Origin: Betaproteobacteria bacterium Ga0077523
GTDB lineage: Bacteria; Pseudomonadota; Gammaproteobacteria; Burkholderiales; Ga0077523
Length of the DNA: 64,000 nucleotides
NCBI GenBank assembly: GCA_001464695.1
Contig: LNDQ01000108.1
Coordinates: forward strand, 148,090 to 212,089
Direction: 5' to 3'
The notes under the pieces were generated by a model. It had not been told where the DNA came from, searched no databases, and was given only the letters and a program-made list of their open reading frames with translations. This document shows, in pieces, positions 2,805-64,000 of this stretch (positions are counted from its first letter, which is position 1; every line of letters begins with the position of its first letter). The translations under genes were made by a program, and so were the position numbers.

Positions 2805-2899
2805 ATGCTCCGGGGTCAGAGATGCTCCGGGGTCAGGTCTTGCATTCATGCTCCGGGGTCAGGTCTTGCATTCATGCTCCGGGGTCAGGTCTTGCCTTC
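2805..2899. repeat. 26-bp tandem repeat (ATGCTCCGGGGTCAGGTCTTGCATTC), 3 full units plus 1 truncated unit
   Basis: Units at 2805-2819 (truncated), 2822-2847, 2848-2873 and 2874-2899. It lies in the 218-nt gap between two convergent stop codons (2736 and 2955). Confidence 0.9.
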
Positions 2900-2954
2900 A
2901 CGCATTCCCGCATCCTCACGACCAGACGAGCAGATCGCCACTTCCAACCATCGC

Positions 2955-4919
2955 CTACTCCGCCCGCCCCGCGAACGCCAGCAGATCTCCGAGATAATCG
3001 TCCATCTCGAGCACTTCCTTGCGCATCATGTAGTGCACCTGTTCGGCGCGTTTCTGCGCGAGGTTGAAGAGCAGCCGTCCGGCGTTCGCGTCCGACAATG
3101 CGCGTCCGAGCAGCTTGTGGAAGAAGCTGCCGTAGCGCTGGATCAGTTCGTCCTCGAGACTCACGAACACCTCGCAGCTTCCGGGGTCGCCCTGCCGTGC
3201 GCAGCGCCCGAAGAGCTGGCGATCGATACGGCCCGCTTCATTCATCTCGGTCGTGACCACGTGCAGGCCACCGGCTGCGAGTGACTCGGGGGTCAGTTTG
3301 ATATCGGTGCCGCGGCCTGCCATGTTGGTCGCCACGGTGATGCGGCCCGGTTGCCCGGCGGCGGCAACAATCTCCGCCTCTTCCTTGTCCTGTCGCGCAT
3401 TGAGCACGCGATGTTCAAGTCCTGCCGCCGTAAGAAGCGCCGCCAGACGCTCGGACGCTTCCACGGTCCGGGTGCCGACCAGCACCGGCCGACCCCGCTC
3501 GTGCTCGCGGCGGATCGACTCCAGCGCCGCCGCATACTTCTCCTCGAGCGTCGGCAGCAGCATCGGCGGTGCGATCCTGCGCAGCACCGGCTTGCGCGTC
3601 GGCACGCGCGTCACCTTGAGGCGATACACGGCCCAGAGCTCGGCCGAGATCTCCTTGGCAGTGCCGGTCATGCCGGACAATCGAAGATAGCGCCGGAAGA
3701 ACCGCTGGTACGAGATACGCGCCAGCGTCTCGCGCTGGCCGGTGAGTTCGCAACCTTCCTTCACCTCGATCAGCTGGTGCAGGCCACGCTCCCACGAGCG
3801 GTCCGCCATCGTGCGGCCGGTGTACTCGTCCACGATGACGATCTTGCCCTCTTCCACGAGGTAGTGCTTGTCGCGCTGGTACTGGTGCGTTGCCGACAGC
3901 GCCTGCTTCACGAGTTCCTCGCGCCGGTTGGGTCCGGTCCACAAGCCGCGCATGTCGGCGGCAAGCTCCTTCAATCGCTGTTTGCCGGTATCGGTGATAC
4001 GGATGCTGGTCTGGTGATGCTCGAGCACGAAATCCTCGTCACGCACGAGCTGCCCTGCGAGCCCGAGCGCTTCGCGATACAGGCGCTCCAGGCCCGAGTC
4101 GCCGGTGTCACCGGAGATGATGAGCGGCGTGCGCGCCTCGTCCACCAGGACGCTGTCGACCTCGTCGACGATCGCGAACGACAGTCCACGCAAGGTGAGA
4201 TCGCTGTCGCCGCCACCACCCGTGACCTTGTCGACGGCGTAGCGCAACGCGCGGGGCCGACCCTTCAGCTTCATGCGATCGCGCAGGTAGTCGAAGGTGA
4301 CGTCCTTGTTGGTGCAATACGTGATGTCGTTGCGGTACTGCGCGGGGCGATCTGGCAGCGCGACATCCTGGGTAACGCAGCCGACGGTGAGGCCGAGCGA
4401 GCGGTACAGCGGCCCCATCTCCTCGGCGTCGCGCGCGGCCAGGTAGTCGTTCACGGTCACCACATGCGTGGGCCACCCACCGAGCGCAGCGGTGGCGGCG
4501 GCGAGAGTTGCGGTGAGAGTCTTGCCTTCGCCGGTTTCCATCTCGGCGATGCGGCCCGACAGCAGGATCCAGCCGCCCGCCAGTTGGACGTCGTAGTGGC
4601 GCACACCGAGCGTGTGGCGGGCAGCAGCACGTACCAGCGCGAACGCCTGTGCGACCAGGGGATCGGTGAATCCGTCACGCTTCAGTTTCGGCCGCAGTTC
4701 CATGGCCCGCGCGCGCAACTGCTCCAGCGTCAGCTCGTCGCACTGCGGTCCCGCCGCGTTCACGGCGGCAATGAACGCATCGAAGCGGCCCTTGCGCATC
4801 GCATGCATCCGCTCGAGCCACAAGGCGGGGCGGCGGGCGGTGCGCTCCAGCCAGTTCTCGCGCGGTTCGAGCTTCTCCGGGTAGAACCCGTGACCGAGGA
4901 TCTGGGTGGTACTAGACAC
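2955..4919 (-). CDS. SecA-like DEAD-motor ATPase, C-terminally truncated relative to canonical SecA
   Basis: Walker A METGEGKTLTATL (GEGKT at 4518-4532), Walker B/DEAD FAIVDEVDSVLVDEARTPLIISG, and NBD2 motifs TNMAGRGTDIKL and GRCARQGDPGS. The protein is 654 aa and ends shortly after the start of the scaffold helix (AQKRAEQVHYMMRKEVLEMDDY). Its start overlaps the upstream gene by 8 nt. Confidence 0.85.
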   Translation of the reverse strand: MSSTTQILGHGFYPEKLEPRENWLERTARRPALWLERMHAMRKGRFDAFIAAVNAAGPQCDELTLEQLRARAMELRPKLKRDGFTDPLVAQAFALVRAAARHTLGVRHYDVQLAGGWILLSGRIAEMETGEGKTLTATLAAATAALGGWPTHVVTVNDYLAARDAEEMGPLYRSLGLTVGCVTQDVALPDRPAQYRNDITYCTNKDVTFDYLRDRMKLKGRPRALRYAVDKVTGGGGDSDLTLRGLSFAIVDEVDSVLVDEARTPLIISGDTGDSGLERLYREALGLAGQLVRDEDFVLEHHQTSIRITDTGKQRLKELAADMRGLWTGPNRREELVKQALSATHQYQRDKHYLVEEGKIVIVDEYTGRTMADRSWERGLHQLIEVKEGCELTGQRETLARISYQRFFRRYLRLSGMTGTAKEISAELWAVYRLKVTRVPTRKPVLRRIAPPMLLPTLEEKYAAALESIRREHERGRPVLVGTRTVEASERLAALLTAAGLEHRVLNARQDKEEAEIVAAAGQPGRITVATNMAGRGTDIKLTPESLAAGGLHVVTTEMNEAGRIDRQLFGRCARQGDPGSCEVFVSLEDELIQRYGSFFHKLLGRALSDANAGRLLFNLAQKRAEQVHYMMRKEVLEMDDYLGDLLAFAGRAE

Positions 4920-7085: not shown

Positions 7086-7190
7086 TTCCACCACGAAGGA
7101 CTCGAAGGACACGAAGGGCCGCGAGGGAGGTCGCGGCTTGCCGGCCTTTCCTTCGTGCACCTTCGTGTCCTTCGAGTCCTTCGTGGTGAA
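7086..7190. repeat. REP-type long inverted repeat ('HEGLEGHEG/FVSFESFVV' element) inside the operon
   Basis: Arms at 7086-7117 and 7160-7190 are near-perfect reverse complements (about 30 bp). An inner hairpin GCCGCGA-GGGAGG-TCGCGGC lies at 7118-7137. The element sits in the 155-nt gap between gene 1 and gene 2 of the operon. Confidence 0.85.
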
Positions 7191-16387: not shown

Positions 16388-16537
16388 GGTGACGCCCCCC
16401 CGATGGGCCTGCGGCCCTTCCCCCCAAGGGGCCAGCCCTCTTGTGGGCTGAGGTCGGACACAGACAGTCCCTGCGGACTGTCTGTGCCTACCGAAGGCGA
16501 TCGGTCTCCGACCGATGGCGGCCCGGCGAGGGCTGAG
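16384..16537 (+). repeat. approx. 155-bp structured dispersed repeat, copy 1 (MITE/REP-like)
   Basis: It is near-identical to 45656-45816 and contains perfect hairpins CACAGACAGTCC-CTGC-GGACTGTCTGTG and CGATCGGTC-TCC-GACCGATCG. It starts at the eamA stop codon and overlaps the last ~16 codons of the convergent gene. Confidence 0.85.
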
Positions 16538-21020: not shown

Positions 21021-21042
21021 AGTCGTCGGCCCGCATCCCGGC

Positions 21043-21124
21043 CTTCCCCCGACGACGTCGGGGGAAGGGGTGTACGGCTCCCTCCCCCGGCTTTGCCGGG
21101 GGAGGGCTGGGGTGGGGGCAGCCA
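21043..21124. repeat. G/C-rich REP element (family 'CCCTCCCCC-loop-GGGGGAGGG ... GGGGTGGGGGC'), copy 1
   Basis: Two hairpins, CTTCCCCCGACGACGTCGGGGGAAG and CCCTCCCCCGGCTTTGCCGGGGGAGGG, followed by CTGGGGTGGGGGCAGCC. It lies between convergent stops. Confidence 0.8.
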
Positions 21125-35753: not shown

Positions 35754-35872
35754 AGCCCCCACCCCAACCCTCCCCCACCTTCGGCGGGGGAGGGAGCGTA
35801 CTACTCTGCCCCGTCACCTGAGGCACTCCCTCCCCCACCTTCGGTGGGGGAGGGCTGGGGTGGGGGCAAACG
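35754..35872. repeat. G/C-rich REP element pair (inverted dimer), copy 2
   Basis: GCCCCCACCCCAACCCTCCCCCACCTTCGGCGGGGGAGGGA and its inverted partner TCCCTCCCCCACCTTCGGTGGGGGAGGGCTGGGGTGGGGGC. Confidence 0.85.
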
Positions 35873-37049: not shown

Positions 37050-37059
37050 TCGGGCTGCT

Positions 37060-37110
37060 TGCCCCCACCCCAACCCTCCCCCGGCGAAGCCGGGGGGGAT
37101 GGGGCAGCGC
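37060..37110. repeat. G/C-rich REP element, copy 3 (single unit)
   Basis: GCCCCCACCCCAACCCTCCCCCGGCGAAGCCGGGGGGGATGGGGCAGCGC. Confidence 0.75.
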
Positions 37111-39372: not shown

Positions 39373-39480
39373 GCAGCGCTGCCCCCTCCCTCCGCCCTCC
39401 CCCGGCATAGCCGGGGGAGGGGACGTACACCCCTTCCCCCATCGAAGATGGGGGAAGGCTGGGATGGGGGCAGCGCCGCC
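39372..39480. repeat. G/C-rich REP element pair, copy 4
   Basis: CCCTCCCCCGGCATAGCCGGGGGAGGGG and CCCTTCCCCCATCGAAGATGGGGGAAGGCTGGGATGGGGGCAGCGCC, between convergent stops. Confidence 0.8.
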
Positions 39481-45655: not shown

Positions 45656-45816
45656 GCTGAGGTGATGTGACGTCCCCCCCGAAAGGCCTCGCGGCCTCTC
45701 CCCCCAGGGGGCCAGCCCGCTTGTGGGCTGAGGTCGGACACAGACAGTCCCTGCGGACTGTCTGTGCCTACCGAAGGCCATCGGCCTCCGGCCGATGGCG
45801 GCCCGGCGCGGGCTGA
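45656..45816 (+). repeat. approx. 155-bp structured dispersed repeat, copy 2
   Basis: It aligns by eye to 16384-16537 at roughly nine positions in ten, in the same orientation. It lies between the ACP stop and the AMP-ligase start inside the operon. Confidence 0.85.
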
Positions 45817-45857
45817 GTGAACCGTCGGCCCGGGCGCCGACGGGTAGACTGCGCCCC

Positions 45858-51651: not shown

Positions 51652-51742
51652 GCAGCCCCCATCCCGACCTTCCCCCACCGGAGGTGGGGGAAGGGGTGTA
51701 CGGCTCCCTTACCCGGCTTCGCCGGGGGGATGGGGGCAACAA
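51652..51742. repeat. G/C-rich REP element pair, copy 5
   Basis: CCTTCCCCCACCGGAGGTGGGGGAAGG and CCCTTACCCGGCTTCGCCGGGGGGATGGGGGC, inside the biosynthetic cluster. Confidence 0.8.
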
Positions 51743-55293: not shown

Positions 55294-55563
55294 GTGCCCA
55301 AGGTGATCTTCGCTTCTCACGTGCAACGTCACGTCGCCGCGCCGGACAGCGTGGTGGATGGCAGCACCGTGCGCGCCGCCCTCGACGCCGTCTTCGTCGA
55401 CAACCGCCCTCTGCGCGGCTACGTGCTGGACGACCAGGGTCATCTGCGCAAGCACGTGGTGATCTTCGTGGACGGCGCACGTGTGGTCGATCGCGAAGGG
55501 CTTTCGGAAGGCGTGCGGCCAGACAGTGAAATCTATGTGCTGCAAGCCCTGAGCGGCGGCTGA
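55294..55563 (+). CDS. MoaD/ThiS-family ubiquitin-like beta-grasp protein ending in Gly-Gly
   Basis: 89 aa from the GTG at 55294. The C-terminus reads ...IYVLQALSGG-stop. Confidence 0.65.
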   Translation: MPKVIFASHVQRHVAAPDSVVDGSTVRAALDAVFVDNRPLRGYVLDDQGHLRKHVVIFVDGARVVDREGLSEGVRPDSEIYVLQALSGG

Positions 55564-55565
55564 TC

Positions 55566-55710
55566 TTCTCCCTTCTCCCTCCGGGAGAAGGGTCGGGGAT
55601 GAGGGGGACCACCCAGACACCTCGCAGAGGTCGGCGCAGCCGGCCTCTCCCCGCGGGAGAGGGAGGTACACTCCCTTCTCCCTTCGGGAGAAGGGTTGGG
55701 GATGAGGGAA
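55566..55710. repeat. REP elements of the 'CTCCCTTCTCCC-loop-GGGAGAAGGG..GGGGATGAGGG' family (3 hairpin units)
   Basis: TTCTCCCTTCTCCCTCCGGGAGAAGGGTCGGGGATGAGGGGG, CCTCTCCCCGCGGGAGAGGGAGG and CTCCCTTCTCCCTTCGGGAGAAGGGTTGGGGATGAGGG. Confidence 0.85.
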
Positions 55711-55749
55711 AGTACTTGCGCAAGCAAAGCGAAGAGAAAGGATCCATCG

Positions 55750-61075: not shown

Positions 61076-61834
61076 TCAGCGTGTCGCGAGCTTCCGCGCT
61101 GCAAGGACCGGCAGGCGCAGCAGGAATCCGCTGAGCAACCGCGTATGCATCCACGCCAGCAATGCGTTGTCGCGCACGTAGTTGAAGTGGGAAACTCCGC
61201 CTTCGTCCTTGCCGAGATACTTGACCGGTGCATCGATGTTCACCGCCGGCAGCCCGCGCCAGATCAACCGCACCGCGGCTTCCACGTCGAAATCGAAGCG
61301 CCGCATCCACACCGTGCGTGTCATGATGTCCGCGAGCGGGGCGATCGGGTACACGCGAAAGCCATAGAGCGAATCGTCGATGCCCATCCACAGCGTCTCG
61401 AGATTCGCCCACCAGTTGGAGACCCGCCGGCCGCGCACACGCAGTAGTGGTGCGCTGGCATCGAACACGGGGCGGCCGAGCACCAGGGCCTCGGGGCGGC
61501 GCTGCGATTCGCGCATGAACGCGTCGATCATCGCGGCCGGATGCTGCCCATCCGCATCCATGGTGAGCGCATGGGTGAAGCCGGCCTTGCGAGCCTCGAT
61601 CAGTCCATGCAGCACGGCCGCACCCTTGCCGCGATTCGTCGGCAACACGAACACACGCAGGTTCGGTTCGGTGTGCTCGAGTTCCTGCAGCAACTCGGCC
61701 GAGCCGTCGGTACTGCCGTCGACCACGACCCAGACCGGCGCCCAGTGCGCGAGCGCATCGCGCACCGTGCGCACGACGAGCGGCCCGGTGTCGAAGCTCG
61801 GAATCAGGACGAGATGGGTGGCCGACGGGGTCAT
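61076..61834 (-). CDS. family 2 glycosyltransferase
   Basis: LIPSFDTG...VVVDGSTDGS and TMDADGQH (DxD). The ATG at 61832-61834 forms an ATGA overlap with the P-type ATPase stop. An alternative start lies at 61852. Confidence 0.8.
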   Translation of the reverse strand: MTPSATHLVLIPSFDTGPLVVRTVRDALAHWAPVWVVVDGSTDGSAELLQELEHTEPNLRVFVLPTNRGKGAAVLHGLIEARKAGFTHALTMDADGQHPAAMIDAFMRESQRRPEALVLGRPVFDASAPLLRVRGRRVSNWWANLETLWMGIDDSLYGFRVYPIAPLADIMTRTVWMRRFDFDVEAAVRLIWRGLPAVNIDAPVKYLGKDEGGVSHFNYVRDNALLAWMHTRLLSGFLLRLPVLAARKLATR

Positions 61835-64000
61835 GAGCTGCCGGGATTCCATCTCATCACAGCGAATTTTTCCAGTTCGACCATGACGAAGACCAGGGCA
61901 CCAACCAGCAGGCAGCTCAACCAGGCGAACGCGTCCAGGCCGCCGGTGCCGAACAGGCGCTGCATCGGCGGCAAGTACGTGAAGCCGATCTGCAACAACA
62001 GCAACAGAACGACCCCCGGCAGCGCATAGCGATTGCCGACCAGCAACTCGCGATTCAGCACCGAACGCCCGGTGCGCCGCATGTTGAAGAGGTAGAAGAT
62101 CTCACCCATCACCAAGGCATTGACCGCTGCCGTTCGCGCAGCCGCCTCGGACAGGCCACGCTCCAGCTCCATGTAGTGCAGCAACAGGACGCCACCGGCC
62201 AGCAGCCCCGTTACCAGTATCGTGCGCCAGATCAGCAGCCGCGACAGCAACGGCTCCTCGCGCGACCGGGGCGGCCGCAGCATGATGTGGCCCTCGACCG
62301 GTTCGAACGCGATCACCAGGGAGAGCAGCGTCGCCGTGACCATGTTCACCCACAGGATCTGCACCGCCGTGACGGGCGCGGTCCATCCGGCCATGATGGC
62401 AATGACCAGGACACCGGCCTGGGCACTGCTGGTGGGCAGGATGTACAGGATCGCCTTGCGGATGTTTTCGTAGACCGCTCGCCCCTCCTCGACGGCATGG
62501 GCGATCGATGCAAAATTGTCGTCCGCCAGGACGATCGCCGCCGCTTCCTTCGCGGCCTCGGTGCCCTTGTGCCCCATCGCGACGCCGACGTCGGCCCGCT
62601 TCAGTGCCGGGGCATCGTTGACGCCGTCGCCGGTCATGGCCACGACGTCGCCGTCGTGCTGCAAGGCGCTGACGAGCATGAGCTTGTGTTCGGGGCTGGT
62701 GCGGGCGAAGACGTCCGCATCCTCGATCGCATGGATCAGCTTGTCCGGTTCGATGCGGTCGAGATCGGTTCCCGTCAGGACGCGGTCGCCGTCGAGTCCC
62801 AGGTCACGCGCCACGGCGCGTGCGGTGAGCGCGTGATCGCCGGTGATCATCTTCACGCGGATCCCGGCAGCATGGCAGCGGGCGATTGCTGCGACCGCTT
62901 CGTCGCGCGGCGGGTCGATGCTGCCGATGAGGCCGAGGAGGGTGAGATTGGACAGGGATGCGCCATGCAAGGGGCTTCCCTCATCCCCAGTCCTTCTCCC
63001 GGTGGGAGAAGGGGGCGTTCCTCCCTCTCCCTCCGGGAGAGGGATAGAGGGTGAGGGAAAAGCGGCGTCTCCCTCTTCCACGAACCGCGCGGCCACCGCG
63101 AGCACTCGCATGCCGCTGTCGGTGAGCCCGTCGAGCACCATGTTCCAGTAGCCGTGTTCCAGCGGCAGTTCGCCCGCCGCGGTGAGTTGCAGCGGGCACA
63201 TCGCGAGGACGGTTTCCGGAGCGCCCTTCACGACGATCATGGTGTCGGCGCCCGGCTGACGATGGACGGTGGCCATCCAGCGGCGGTCGGCCTCGAACGG
63301 GACGGCATCGACGCGCTCGGCACGAGCCCGTTCCGCCTCCACGTCGAGGCCGCTCTTGAGCGCCAGGGTGACGAGTGCTCCCTCCGTGGGGTCACCCTCC
63401 ATGCGCCAACCGGCGCCGGTGCGCAGGACCGCTGCGTCGTTGCAGAGAATGGCCGCGCGCACCAGCGCCGCGAGCGCGGAATGCTGGAACACGTCGACGC
63501 GCGATCCCTTGTGGTGCACTTCACCCTCCGGCGCATAGCCGGTGCCCGTGACGTCGTACTCCCCTTCGAAGGTCACGGCACGCCGCACCGTCATCTCGTT
63601 GCGCGTCAGTGTCCCGGTCTTGTCGGTGCAGATGACGGTCACGGCACCCAGGGTCTCGACCGACGGCAAGCGCCGCACGATGGCGTTGCGCCGAGCCATC
63701 CGGCCCACGCCGATGGCGAGTGCGATCGTGACGATCGCGGGCAGACCCTCGGGGATGGCCGCCACCGCAATGCCGACGACCGCGAGGAACGTGTCGGCCA
63801 TGTCGCGTCCGCGCGCGATACCCACGGCAAAGACACCTACGGCCGCGAGCACGACGGCAATCGTGAGGTGTCGACCGAACCGGGCGAGCTTGATGGAGAG
63901 CGGCGTCTCCAGGGTCTCGACACCTGCCACCAGACGCGACACCGCACCGATCTCGGTGTTGCTGCCGGTTGCGACGACCACACCCGTCGCCTGCCCGTGC
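61831..64000 (-). CDS. cation-transporting P-type ATPase (type II/III-like), partial; N-terminus beyond the right window edge
   Basis: ICTDKTGTLT phosphorylation motif, MITGD, TGDGVNDAPALK, and 6 C-terminal TM helices. The frame stays open to position 64000 (...HGQATGVVVATGSNTEIG), so the track start at 63981 is not the real start. Confidence 0.9.
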   Translation of the reverse strand, partial: HGQATGVVVATGSNTEIGAVSRLVAGVETLETPLSIKLARFGRHLTIAVVLAAVGVFAVGIARGRDMADTFLAVVGIAVAAIPEGLPAIVTIALAIGVGRMARRNAIVRRLPSVETLGAVTVICTDKTGTLTRNEMTVRRAVTFEGEYDVTGTGYAPEGEVHHKGSRVDVFQHSALAALVRAAILCNDAAVLRTGAGWRMEGDPTEGALVTLALKSGLDVEAERARAERVDAVPFEADRRWMATVHRQPGADTMIVVKGAPETVLAMCPLQLTAAGELPLEHGYWNMVLDGLTDSGMRVLAVAARFVEEGDAAFPSPSIPLPEGEGGTPPSPTGRRTGDEGSPLHGASLSNLTLLGLIGSIDPPRDEAVAAIARCHAAGIRVKMITGDHALTARAVARDLGLDGDRVLTGTDLDRIEPDKLIHAIEDADVFARTSPEHKLMLVSALQHDGDVVAMTGDGVNDAPALKRADVGVAMGHKGTEAAKEAAAIVLADDNFASIAHAVEEGRAVYENIRKAILYILPTSSAQAGVLVIAIMAGWTAPVTAVQILWVNMVTATLLSLVIAFEPVEGHIMLRPPRSREEPLLSRLLIWRTILVTGLLAGGVLLLHYMELERGLSEAAARTAAVNALVMGEIFYLFNMRRTGRSVLNRELLVGNRYALPGVVLLLLLQIGFTYLPPMQRLFGTGGLDAFAWLSCLLVGALVFVMVELEKFAVMRWNPGSS
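62974..63059. repeat. REP element (same family as 55566-55710) embedded in-frame in the P-type ATPase CDS
   Basis: CTTCCCTCATCCCCAGTCCTTCTCCCGGTGGGAGAAGGGG...CCTCTCCCTCCGGGAGAGGGATAGAGGGTGAGGGAAAAG is translated as FPSPSIPLPEGEGGTPPSPTGRRTGDEGS. Confidence 0.8.

What the first reader, a model, noticed from the sequence alone, without database searches (positions are those of the whole stretch)
62940..63075. REP element inserted in-frame into the cytoplasmic domain of a P-type ATPase
The hairpin-forming element at 62974-63059 belongs to the same family as the intergenic copies at 55566-55710. Here it lies inside the ATPase ORF and is translated as FPSPSIPLPEGEGGTPPSPTGRRTGDEGS. It sits just upstream of the conserved LTLLGLIGSIDPPRDEA segment, in a surface loop of the nucleotide-binding domain. 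The reading frame is preserved through the phosphorylation and hinge motifs. Either the protein tolerates a ~29-aa low-complexity insertion, or the gene is a recent pseudogene-in-waiting.
Basis: seen in the sequence. Interest (0 to 1): 0.55.

Follow-up and report, generated by a model that had tools for sequence, protein, structure and literature searches.

The report
Repeat doublet translated inside ATPase gene
An 87-base copy of a widespread bacterial DNA repeat (a "triplex-motif" or boxC-type inverted pair) sits in frame inside an otherwise intact calcium-pump-type ATPase gene and is read as a 29-residue floppy surface loop; repeats translated inside genes are already known, but this repeat family also led to a possible mobility partner, the DUF559 endonuclease.

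Summary
Window 62977-63063 (minus strand) is an 87-nt, 29-codon insertion in a P2-type ATPase gene. It lies between the last N-domain strand and the strand that leads to the DPPR hinge. It is absent from 114 homologues, including syntenic orthologues at 88-92% DNA identity. Two further assembly records encode the identical insert peptide, and a third differs by one residue. AlphaFold2 models it as a disordered loop (pLDDT <50) in a confident SERCA/SPCA-like fold. The gene is intact, and dN/dS against the orthologues is about 0.1, so tolerance is favoured over decay. A borderline excess of amino-acid changes in the insert lineage remains.

The element is not a classical RAYT-type REP. It is an inverted doublet of the G/C-rich intrastrand triplex motif (TM / TMECO / boxC; Holder 2015). 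That family is reported as always intergenic in E. coli, with no known mobility gene. The consensus unit is stop-free in five of six frames. At least 8 of 83 metagenomic copies of the same unit are also in frame inside real genes.

Side lead: TM units bracket DUF559 (Vsr-like endonuclease) genes in several phyla, so doublets may be cassettes that lost DUF559.

Verdict: a real, ordinary-kind event and a new member of a known class.

The parts
61831..64000 (-). P2-type (SERCA/SPCA/LMCA1-like) cation ATPase gene. It is partial in the window: 722 codons plus the stop, with the N-terminal 202 codons beyond 64000.
   Evidence: Pfam hits: E1-E2_ATPase, Cation_ATPase, Hydrolase, Cation_ATPase_C. PDB phmmer hits SPCA1, LMCA1 and SERCA at 1e-103 to 1e-125. 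The full-length 924-aa forms P0001, P0123 and P0124 exist.
62977..63063 (-). The in-frame 87-nt (29-codon) insertion, an inverted doublet of two triplex-motif units. It is translated as AFPSPSIPLPEGEGGTPPSPTGRRTGDEG (P0001 residues 515-543).
   Evidence: Absent from the orthologues (alignments A1 and A2; blastn break points). AF2 pLDDT is below 50 for residues 518-542. Hairpin -68.7 kcal/mol.
63022..63057 (+). TM unit 1 (GTGAGGG type), on the template strand of the ATPase: TCCCTCTCCC-TCC-GGGAGAGGG-ATAGA-GGGTGAGGG.
   Evidence: Detected by my triplex-architecture finder. It nearly fits the TMECO pattern CCCTCNCCC-N3-6-GGGNGAGGG-N3-GGGNGAGGG of Holder 2015, except that the second loop is 5 nt instead of 3.
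62978..63012 (-). TM unit 2 (GATGAGGG type), on the sense strand: CCTTCTCCC-ACC-GGGAGAAGG-ACT-GGGGATGAGGG.
63013..63021 (.). Spacer between the two units; it forms the apex of the long hairpin.
55565..55708 (+). Intergenic cluster of the same family: two full units (55565-55605 and 55673-55708) plus a hairpin-only remnant (55644-55662). It lies between an 89-aa GG-ending protein gene and a BNR/sortilin-like gene.
   Evidence: The relative L083 has 30 nt where the window has 167 nt.
21030..21118 (.). Doublet of a sister subfamily (CCTYCCCCC / GGGGGARGG / GGGRTGGGGG), intergenic. Further copies lie at 35756-35866, 37053-37096, 39382-39470 and 51656-51728.
   Evidence: Intergenic positions were checked with open frames and Pfam.

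Best explanation
An inverted doublet of the G/C-rich intrastrand triplex motif repeat (the boxC/TMECO family) was inserted into the ATPase gene of this Burkholderiales lineage. Three properties let the insertion survive.

1. It is 87 nt long, a multiple of three.
2. Its pyrimidine-only and purine-only blocks almost cannot make stop codons. The consensus unit is open in 5 of 6 frames, and the actual insert is open in 2 of 3 sense frames.
3. It landed in a surface loop at the C-terminal end of the nucleotide-binding domain, just before the strand that returns to the P domain (DPPR hinge).

The insert is translated as a 29-residue Pro/Gly/Ser/Glu-rich disordered loop, and the pump most likely still works.

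**Shown:** the insertion, its family, its frame, its position, the predicted disorder, and purifying selection on the gene.

**Inferred:** that the protein is made and active, and how the element got there. No TM mobility enzyme is known. My data point to DUF559 endonuclease cassettes as the likely source, with doublets being cassettes that lost the gene.
For: - **Insertion relative to orthologues.**. Gene order is the same in L081, L082 and L083.
- **Loop length.** The loop is a unique outlier: 46 aa against 15-18 aa in 112 of 115 homologues.
- **Known structures.** SPCA1 has one residue where this protein has about 42.
- **AF2 model.** Mean pLDDT 86.8, pTM 0.80. Residues 518-542 have pLDDT below 50 and are coil, between strand 500-509 and strand 555-563. 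The model matches SERCA and SPCA1 at TM-score up to 0.82.
- **Selection.** dN/dS is 0.086 and 0.115 against the two nearest orthologues.
- **Several assemblies.** The insert-bearing allele appears in three assembly records: ENA k127 contig, NCBI LNFM01 226-kb contig, JGI 144-kb contig. The ENA contig differs from the window by 2 SNPs in 5858 nt.
- **Family identity.** Three-block architecture, with the stem and the third block covarying across four subfamilies. The motif is described in Holder 2015.
- **Generality.** At least 8 of 83 metagenomic copies of the same unit lie in frame inside Pfam-supported genes: HsdM x4, HsdR, GatB, NRPS/PKS and heparinase. They reuse the same peptide frames (PSPxGRRxGDEG, PSSPxLLPxGEG).
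- **Recent gain.** Both sites of this subfamily in the region comparable with L083 are absent from L083.
Against: - No expression or activity data exist.
- The insert-bearing lineage has 22-23 unique amino-acid changes against 8 in its sister, with L083 as outgroup (binomial p = 0.011). Four neighbouring genes show 12 against 13 (Fisher p = 0.056). Mild relaxation, or compensation, cannot be excluded.
- The three assemblies may derive from one sampling project, so independence is limited.
- Exact insertion boundaries and any target-site duplication cannot be read, because the flanking loop is itself diverged.
- No DUF559 gene and no transposase were found in the window or in L081-L083.
Confidence: 0.85

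Rival explanations
1. The gene is a young pseudogene. The insertion inactivated the pump, and there has not yet been time for stops or frameshifts to accumulate.
For: - Amino-acid changes are in excess on the insert lineage: 22-23 against 8.
- Three-point decomposition of the distances (my arithmetic) gives a branch omega of about 0.13 for the insert lineage and about 0.04 for the sister.
- One of only two SNPs between the window and L081 is a non-synonymous change inside the insert.
Against: - An omega of about 0.13 is still strong purifying selection.
- The 924-codon ORF is intact, and DKTGT, TGES, PEGL, KGAPE, DPPR, MITGD and GDGVNDAP are all present.
- None of the lineage-specific changes I checked fall in the invariant columns of the 115-sequence alignment.
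- The insert lies in a loop that is much longer in eukaryotic SERCA (plus established SERCA knowledge).
- The same element family sits in frame in the essential gene GatB elsewhere.
Confidence: 0.1
2. It is a classical REPIN: a doublet of RAYT-mobilised REP sequences inserted by a REP-associated tyrosine transposase.
For: The inverted-doublet architecture with a short spacer that forms one long hairpin is the REPIN layout. Intragenic REP dimers encoding 20-30 aa are documented for GTAG/CGTC REPs.
Against: - No GTAG or CGTC tag is visible at the unit ends in the printed unit sequences (by inspection).
- The unit has a third block that mirrors the stem (triplex architecture), which REPs lack.
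- The identical unit occurs in contigs of 51-67% GC with unrelated flanks, unlike lineage-specific REPINs.
- Holder 2015 found no transposase near the E. coli copies.
- No RAYT-like match appeared in 842 kb of unit-bearing DNA. This is a weak test, because the probe was a protein sequence recalled from memory.
- No Y1_Tnp was found among the window ORFs scanned.
Confidence: 0.07
3. The insert is an assembly artefact: a repeat collapsed or spliced into the gene.
For: Repeats are classic sites of misassembly, and the source is a metagenome.
Against: - The insert (87 nt) is shorter than the final k-mer (127) of the ENA assembly that also carries it. Single k-mers can therefore span it with unique flanks on both sides (inference).
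- Three assembly records agree.
- The frame is exactly preserved.
Confidence: 0.02
4. The insert has been co-opted. The loop, or the DNA/RNA structure it encodes, has a regulatory role, such as a flexible tether, a protease or interaction site, translational pausing, or local recombination or phase variation.
For: - Both units keep perfect three-block architecture in the window allele.
- TM loci are associated with genomic variability in E. coli.
- The mRNA hairpin is very stable.
Against: - The insert is present in one shallow lineage only.
- The L081 allele already carries a mismatch in a third block.
- No promoter or terminator signals were found.
- The peptide is low-complexity and predicted disordered.
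- Nothing in the data requires a function.
Confidence: 0.05

Closest known systems
G/C-rich intrastrand triplex motif repeats (TM / TMECO; earlier called boxC in E. coli), Holder et al., NAR 2015 (PMC4666352)
   Same: - The same three-block unit of 34-38 nt: a C/T block, its complement after a 3-6 nt loop, then a third purine block mirroring the second.
- Unit 1 nearly fits the published TMECO pattern.
- It is multi-copy, often occurs as tandem inverted pairs, and is found across many bacteria.
   Different: - In E. coli K-12 all 23 copies are reported as intergenic. Here a doublet is translated inside a gene.
- The subfamilies here (GGGAGAAGG / GGGGATGAGGG and GGGGGAGGG / GGGGTGGGGG) differ in sequence from TMECO.
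- Triplex formation by these copies was not tested.
Rickettsia palindromic elements (RPE), Ogata et al. 2000, as summarised in PMC10969869 and PMC3733652
   Same: A palindromic repeat inserted in frame into unrelated, apparently functional protein genes, adding a peptide segment that is compatible with the fold.
   Different: RPEs are about 100-150 bp and confined to Rickettsia, an unrelated sequence family. This element is 87 nt, G/C-rich and built of triplex-type units.
Intragenic GTAG/CGTC REPs and REP dimers (Di Nocera et al. 2013, PMC3733652)
   Same: REP dimers inside ORFs that encode 20-30 amino acids, in several phyla including Betaproteobacteria (Thauera). This is the same phenomenon and the same size.
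   Different: Those REPs carry a GTAG or CGTC tag and are linked to RAYT or TIRYT tyrosine transposases. This family shows neither.
REPINs (Bertels & Rainey 2011, PMC3116915)
   Same: Two inverted repeat units plus a spacer that form one hairpin. They behave as a non-autonomous unit, and presence or absence differs between close relatives.
   Different: REPINs are mobilised by a single-copy RAYT, are vertically inherited and are lineage-specific. This unit is found with identical sequence in very different genomes, and its recurring gene neighbour is DUF559, not RAYT.
MITEs derived from an autonomous element by internal deletion
   Same: The two end types of the doublet (inverted GTGAGGG-type unit, forward GATGAGGG-type unit) equal the two ends of the TM-DUF559-TM cassettes in L088 and L162 when those cassettes are flipped.
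   Different: No target-site duplication could be read. DUF559 is a Vsr-like PD-(D/E)XK nuclease, not a known transposase. End orientation is not uniform across all cassettes.

Membership tests
Intrastrand triplex motif (TM/TMECO/boxC) repeats | Three consecutive blocks: a pyrimidine block, a Watson-Crick complementary purine block, and a third purine block that mirrors the second (G*G, A*A or T*A). | tested here: met
   Both units of the insert and 9 other units in the window pass a strict finder (8-nt blocks, perfect stem, at most 1 third-block mismatch). Twenty Markov resamples gave 0 hits. The third block covaries with the stem in 4 subfamilies.
Intrastrand triplex motif (TM/TMECO/boxC) repeats | Fits the published pattern CCCTCNCCC-N3-6-GGGNGAGGG-N3-GGGNGAGGG. 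| tested here: inconclusive
   Unit 1 fits except that loop 2 is 5 nt. Unit 2 is a 10-nt-block variant (CCCTTCTCCC...). The comparison is.
Intrastrand triplex motif (TM/TMECO/boxC) repeats | Intergenic location. | tested here: not met
   This copy lies inside the ATPase ORF. The six other sites in the window are intergenic. Intergenic location is a reported property in E. coli, not a structural definition.
Intrastrand triplex motif (TM/TMECO/boxC) repeats | Forms a triplex in vitro or in vivo. | not testable with these tools
   Only duplex hairpin energies could be computed.
RAYT-associated REP / REPIN | GTAG or CGTC tetranucleotide at one end of the palindrome. | tested here: not met
   The unit ends are (C)T-CCCTTCTCCC... 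and ...GGGGATGAGGG. Conservation stops at these ends across 78 aligned metagenomic contexts, and no GTAG or CGTC is visible there (judged by inspection, not by a dedicated search).
RAYT-associated REP / REPIN | A RAYT (Y1 transposase) gene flanked by the same repeats in the genome. | tested here: inconclusive
   None was found among the window ORFs scanned with Pfam. A tblastn search of 842 kb with a remembered E. coli RayT sequence also found nothing. The complete genome was not available.
RAYT-associated REP / REPIN | Inverted doublet with a spacer that forms a single long hairpin. | tested here: met
   RNA -68.7 kcal/mol, z = -4.86. DNA -33.6 kcal/mol, z = -4.53.
In-frame palindromic insertions of the RPE kind | A repeat-family member inside an ORF that keeps the frame, has no stop, and is absent from orthologues. 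| tested here: met
In-frame palindromic insertions of the RPE kind | The insert lies on the protein surface and is compatible with the fold. | tested here: met
   In the AF2 model the insert is a low-confidence coil between confident N-domain and P-domain strands. The fold matches SERCA and SPCA1. This is a prediction, not an experiment.
In-frame palindromic insertions of the RPE kind | The host protein is expressed and functional. | not testable with these tools
   Only indirect evidence is available: dN/dS of 0.09-0.12.
P2-type P-type ATPase (host gene) | DKTGT phosphorylation motif, TGES, PEGL, the N-domain KGAPE motif, DPPR, MITGD and GDGVNDAP hinge motifs, and a C-terminal membrane domain. 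| tested here: met
   All motifs are present in the translation and alignment. Pfam domains are, and the PDB matches.

The most novel reading that the evidence does not exclude
The boxC / triplex-motif repeats, for which no mobility function has been found since they were first described, may be the ends of small cassettes that carry a DUF559 (Vsr-like PD-(D/E)XK) endonuclease gene. On this reading, TM doublets such as the one in this ATPase are the cassette with the gene deleted, a MITE-like derivative. The whole family would be built to be readable in frame, so that it can sit inside host genes without breaking them. In two metagenomic HsdM genes the entire TM-DUF559-TM cassette is an in-frame insertion.

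Evidence so far:
- All 7 DUF559 genes in 842 kb of TM-selected DNA lie 0-82 nt from a unit.
- 9 of 14 DUF559 genes from plasmid or chromid records of five phyla or classes, chosen without regard to TMs, have units within about 180 nt, several on both sides and in inverted orientation.
- In 50 kb of a Deinococcus plasmid, the only two units bracket the DUF559 gene.
- E. coli ycjD ends in a degenerate unit and has TMECO #9 168 nt downstream.
- The Vsr/DUF559 clan already contains a group I intron homing endonuclease.
- I found no paper in the held library that links DUF559/YcjD to boxC/TM repeats.
Probability: 0.45. Interest if true: 0.75.

Novelty: new member of a known kind. Interest (0 to 1): 0.42.

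Why it matters
**For the finding itself.** This is a clean, datable example of a protein gaining a 29-residue disordered loop in one step from a genomic repeat, inside a well-understood molecular machine. The insert-free form survives in close relatives, so tolerance of the N-domain loop to insertion can be tested directly. It also corrects the picture that boxC/triplex-motif repeats are strictly intergenic: about one in ten metagenomic copies of this unit is translated inside a real gene.

**For the side lead.** If DUF559 cassettes are the source of these repeats, three loose ends connect. These are the origin and spread of boxC/TM repeats, the function of the widespread orphan family DUF559/YcjD, and the genomic instability reported around TM sites. 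The idea is testable in E. coli K-12 using ycjD.

Tried and rejected
- **Rfam.** The gathering-threshold scan of the whole window gave no family.
- **tRNA scan.** None found.
- **Orthologue retrieval from genome contigs.** The close orthologues came from the protein search and exact-protein look-ups instead.
- **RAYT.** No Y1 transposase was found among 20 window ORFs scanned with Pfam. A tblastn search with an E. coli RayT sequence recalled from memory gave no hit with E-value below 2 in 842 kb. This is a weak negative.
- **Target-site duplication.** It cannot be read, because the loop flanking the insert has diverged between orthologues.
- **Internal promoter or terminator at the insert.** None was predicted.
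- **E. coli presence/absence test of the ycjD cassette.** Uninformative for mobility. Genomes lacking the K-12 arrangement carry a different island next to fabI rather than an empty site.
- **First regex for units.** My first attempt returned nothing and was replaced by an explicit finder.
- **Peptide search.** I ran no further search on the insert peptide, because the DNA scan already gave in-frame cases.
Full report
**1. What is in the sequence**

The ATPase gene is on the minus strand, from its stop at 61831 to beyond the window end at 64000 (722 codons in the window).

The segment shares a repeat with the intergenic region 55566-55710:
- Direct family D8: 55568-55605, 55671-55708 and 63020-63057, at 79-95% identity.
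- Inverted matches: 83% over 76 nt and 89% over 36 nt.

A hairpin listing shows that the ATPase copy consists of two units in inverted orientation around a 9-nt spacer. The whole segment folds into one long hairpin. As RNA it gives -68.7 kcal/mol (z = -4.86, 0 of 200 shuffles as stable). As DNA it gives -33.6 kcal/mol (z = -4.53).

**2. It is an insertion, and it is real**

Pfam and PDB searches identify a P2-type pump whose closest solved relatives are SPCA1, Listeria LMCA1 and SERCA. In the SPCA1 alignment, query residues 304-345 face a single SPCA1 residue.

A search of 5.8 billion proteins returned one near-identical 924-aa protein with the insert (P0001). It also returned a graded series of orthologues of 884-891 aa without it, P0002 to P0009, at 92% down to 72% identity over the query. 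Their contigs have the same gene order: LutB, LutC, GGDEF, ATPase, glycosyltransferase, PNPOx, hypothetical, MIP.

At DNA level, window 62950-63070 (121 nt) faces 28 nt in L082, and the equivalent stretch faces 39 nt in L083. The net difference is 93 nt in both. Codon by codon this resolves into two events:
- an 87-nt, 29-codon block at window 62977-63063 (AFPSPSIPLPEGEGGTPPSPTGRRTGDEG);
- a separate 2-codon difference further on (HGASLS against EGIE).

Among 115 aligned homologues, the loop between MRVLAVAA and NLTLLG is 15-18 residues in 112, then 20 and 25 in one each, and 46 only in this protein.

The 90% cluster of P0001 holds two more 924-aa members, from NCBI LNFM01 (226-kb contig) and JGI (144-kb contig). 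Both carry exactly the window's insert peptide. The ENA contig L081 is 99.966% identical to the window over 5858 nt, with two SNPs:
- one synonymous (63301);
- one Pro-to-Leu change inside the insert (63056).

L081 comes from a k = 127 assembly, longer than the 87-nt insert. An assembly artefact is therefore very unlikely. The three records may still stem from one sampling project.

The nearest named relative of the ATPase is from a Burkholderiales MAG.

**3. Where it sits in the protein, and whether the gene is alive**

AlphaFold2, run with the 115-sequence alignment, gives a confident model (mean pLDDT 86.8, pTM 0.80). Residues 518-542 are coil with pLDDT below 50. They lie between strand 500-509 with helix 511-516 on one side and helix 545-548 with strand 555-563 on the other. 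The insert is residues 515-543, so the low-confidence stretch is the insert. The model superposes on SERCA, SPCA1 and LMCA1 structures with TM-scores up to 0.82.

From established SERCA structure, which is my own knowledge and not tested here, the preceding strand carries the ATP-binding arginine (Arg560 in SERCA1a; the aligned R500 is invariant). The following strand leads into the DPPR hinge. The site is therefore the last surface loop of the N domain, a loop that is about 25 residues long in SERCA itself.

All catalytic motifs are present.

Pairwise dN/dS against the two nearest orthologues is 0.086 and 0.115. A relative-rate test with L083 as outgroup shows 22-23 amino-acid changes unique to the insert-bearing lineage against 8 in its sister (binomial p = 0.011). 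Four neighbouring genes together show 12 against 13 (Fisher p = 0.056). Splitting the distances over three branches (my arithmetic) gives omega of about 0.13 on the insert lineage and about 0.04 on the sister.

My reading is that the gene is under clear purifying selection. There is a borderline signal of some relaxation or compensation since the lineages split. That fits a tolerated insertion better than a dead gene. Only expression data can settle it.

No promoter-like or terminator-like site is predicted around the insert.

**4. What the element is**

Rfam has no family for it. Each unit has three blocks:
- a C/T-only block;
- its Watson-Crick complement after a 3-9 nt loop;
- after 2-5 nt, a third purine block that is the mirror image of the second, with T or A opposite A.

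A strict finder for this architecture finds 11 units in the 64-kb window and none in 20 Markov resamples.

The third block changes together with the stem in four subfamilies:

| Stem | Third block |
|---|---|
| GGGGGAGGG | GGGGTGGGGG |
| GGGGGAAGG | GGGATGGGGG |
| GGGAGAAGG | GGGGATGAGGG |
| GGGAGAGGG | GGGTGAGGG |

A full-text search for the tail sequences led to Holder et al. 2015. That paper describes this motif as a G/C-rich intrastrand triplex motif:
- It is named TMECO, and was known earlier as boxC.
- It shows triplex formation in vitro.
- It counts 3610 copies in 262 proteobacterial genomes, and notes related G/C-rich motifs in Cyanobacteria and others.
- It finds 23 copies in E. coli K-12, five sites being tandem inverted pairs.
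- It states that the motif is always intergenic there.
- It states that no transposase or integrase was ever found nearby.

Unit 1 of the insert nearly fits their published pattern. Unit 2 is a 10-nt-block variant.

The defining marks of RAYT-type REPs, a GTAG or CGTC tag and a flanking Y1 transposase, were not found.

**5. Why it can be translated, and how general that is**

Pyrimidine-only and purine-only blocks cannot contain stop codons. In the consensus unit, only the TGA in G(A)TGAGGG closes one frame, so 5 of 6 frames are open (read directly from the sequence). The actual insert is open in 2 of 3 sense frames and 1 of 3 antisense frames.

These lie in contigs of 51-67% GC, and conservation stops sharply at the unit ends.

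Of 83 unit matches in the 80 listed loci, 14 lie in long open frames. Pfam confirms 8 as in-frame parts of real genes:
- four HsdM genes (L088, L162, L123, L117);
- one HsdR (L116);
- GatB (L142);
- an NRPS/PKS linker (L084);
- a heparinase II/III (L121).

The same peptide frames recur: PSPxGRRxGDEG and PSSPxLLPxGEG, both also present in the ATPase insert.

In-frame palindromic repeats are a known phenomenon: the Rickettsia RPEs, and GTAG/CGTC REP dimers encoding 20-30 aa. This case is therefore a new member of a known kind, and extends that kind to the boxC/TM family.

**6. How it got there**

This part is inference. Both sites of this subfamily that can be compared with the relative L083 are absent there: the ATPase insert, and the intergenic cluster, where the window has 167 nt and L083 has 30 nt. 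Gain is therefore recent.

No mobility gene is in the window. While classifying the metagenomic copies, I found that two HsdM genes carry, in frame, a cassette of unit - DUF559 domain - unit. It lies at the loop where a third HsdM has units only.

I followed this up.
- A profile built from these DUF559 domains finds 7 DUF559 genes in the 842 kb of unit-bearing loci. All are 0-82 nt from a unit, and six of the ORFs overlap a unit, at the 3' end in the loci inspected in detail.
- In a set chosen without regard to TMs (14 DUF559 genes from plasmid or chromid records of Cyanobacteria, Deinococcota, and Alpha-, Beta- and Gammaproteobacteria), 9 have units within about 180 nt. Synechocystis and two Deinococcus species have inverted units on both sides. 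The unit sequence differs by lineage.
- In 50 kb of Deinococcus proteolyticus pDEIPR03, the only two units lie 18 nt before and 3 nt after the DUF559 gene, inside the hpa operon. Related species carry the cassette at other sites.
- E. coli K-12 ycjD (DUF559) ends in a degenerate unit and has TMECO #9 168 nt downstream.
- The two end types of the ATPase doublet equal the two ends of the L088 and L162 cassettes when these are flipped.
- The Vsr/DUF559 clan includes a group I intron homing endonuclease.
- I found no paper in the held library that links DUF559 or YcjD to these repeats.

The association is strong, but three limits remain:
- 5 of 14 DUF559 genes have no unit nearby;
- end orientation varies among cassettes;
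- nothing shows that DUF559 moves the units.

I rate the cassette-origin reading at about 0.45.

**7. Verdict**

The event itself is ordinary in kind: a repeat doublet tolerated as a disordered loop. It is well documented here and mildly interesting for P-type ATPase structure and for the biology of boxC/TM repeats. The more novel outcome is the DUF559 lead, which I report separately and did not prove.

Noticed in passing
L088:3165-3586 and L162:2983-3404 (metagenome loci); compare L123:1072-2973 (minus strand): Two type I R-M methylase (HsdM) genes carry a complete unit - DUF559 endonuclease - unit cassette (116 aa). It is in frame in the loop between WFxDRxK and VLxIDAR, and the HsdM sequence continues after it. 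A third HsdM has units only at the same loop.
   Followed up: partly
L220:38453-38877 (Deinococcus proteolyticus pDEIPR03); L205, L207, L213, L218; L204:1705-1740 with ycjD at 1908-2261: DUF559 genes are bracketed by triplex-motif units in several phyla. In 50 kb of pDEIPR03, the only two units flank the DUF559 gene. E. coli ycjD has TMECO #9 168 nt downstream. This suggests that boxC/TM repeats are the ends of DUF559 cassettes.
   Followed up: partly
Metagenome loci L088, L162, L123, L117 (HsdM) and L116 (HsdR): Five of the eight verified in-frame copies of the unit are in type I restriction-modification genes. I have no explanation for this enrichment.
   Followed up: no
window 55572-55738 versus L083:20528-20557: The intergenic cluster of the same repeat family is absent from the relative L083 (167 nt against 30 nt). 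Both copies of this subfamily in the comparable region are therefore lineage-specific.
   Followed up: yes
window 16395-16537 and 45675-45817: A second, unrelated intergenic repeat of about 145 nt, 90% identical between its two copies, with an internal perfect hairpin (ACACAGACAGTCC-CTGC-GGACTGTCTGTG). It looks like another small mobile or structured element.
   Followed up: partly
window 7089-7188: A 100-nt near-perfect palindrome (40-nt arms, 90% complementary) built from CGAAGGA-like repeats, in an intergenic position.
   Followed up: no
window 2822-2903: Three tandem copies of a 26-nt unit (ATGCTCCGGGGTCAGGTCTTGCATTC), just downstream of the stop of a minus-strand 654-codon ORF (2955-4919).
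   Followed up: no
window 55294-55563 (+): An 89-aa ORF ending in Gly-Gly, a ubiquitin-like/MoaD/ThiS-type C-terminus. It has no Pfam hit and lies directly upstream of the repeat cluster. It is conserved in L083.
   Followed up: no
P0001 residues 661-692 (AF2 model m9792dd825167): The highly conserved GDGVNDAP...VGVAMG hinge region is modelled with pLDDT below 50 although the rest of the P domain is confident. This is probably a modelling quirk and is unrelated to the insert.
   Followed up: no
L219 (E. coli O157:H7 ATCC 43889) versus L204 (K-12): About 2080 of 5426 complete E. coli genomes lack the K-12 fabI-TM-ycjD-sapF arrangement. In O157:H7 a TetR/RND efflux island follows fabI instead. 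This fits the reported instability of TM loci.
   Followed up: partly
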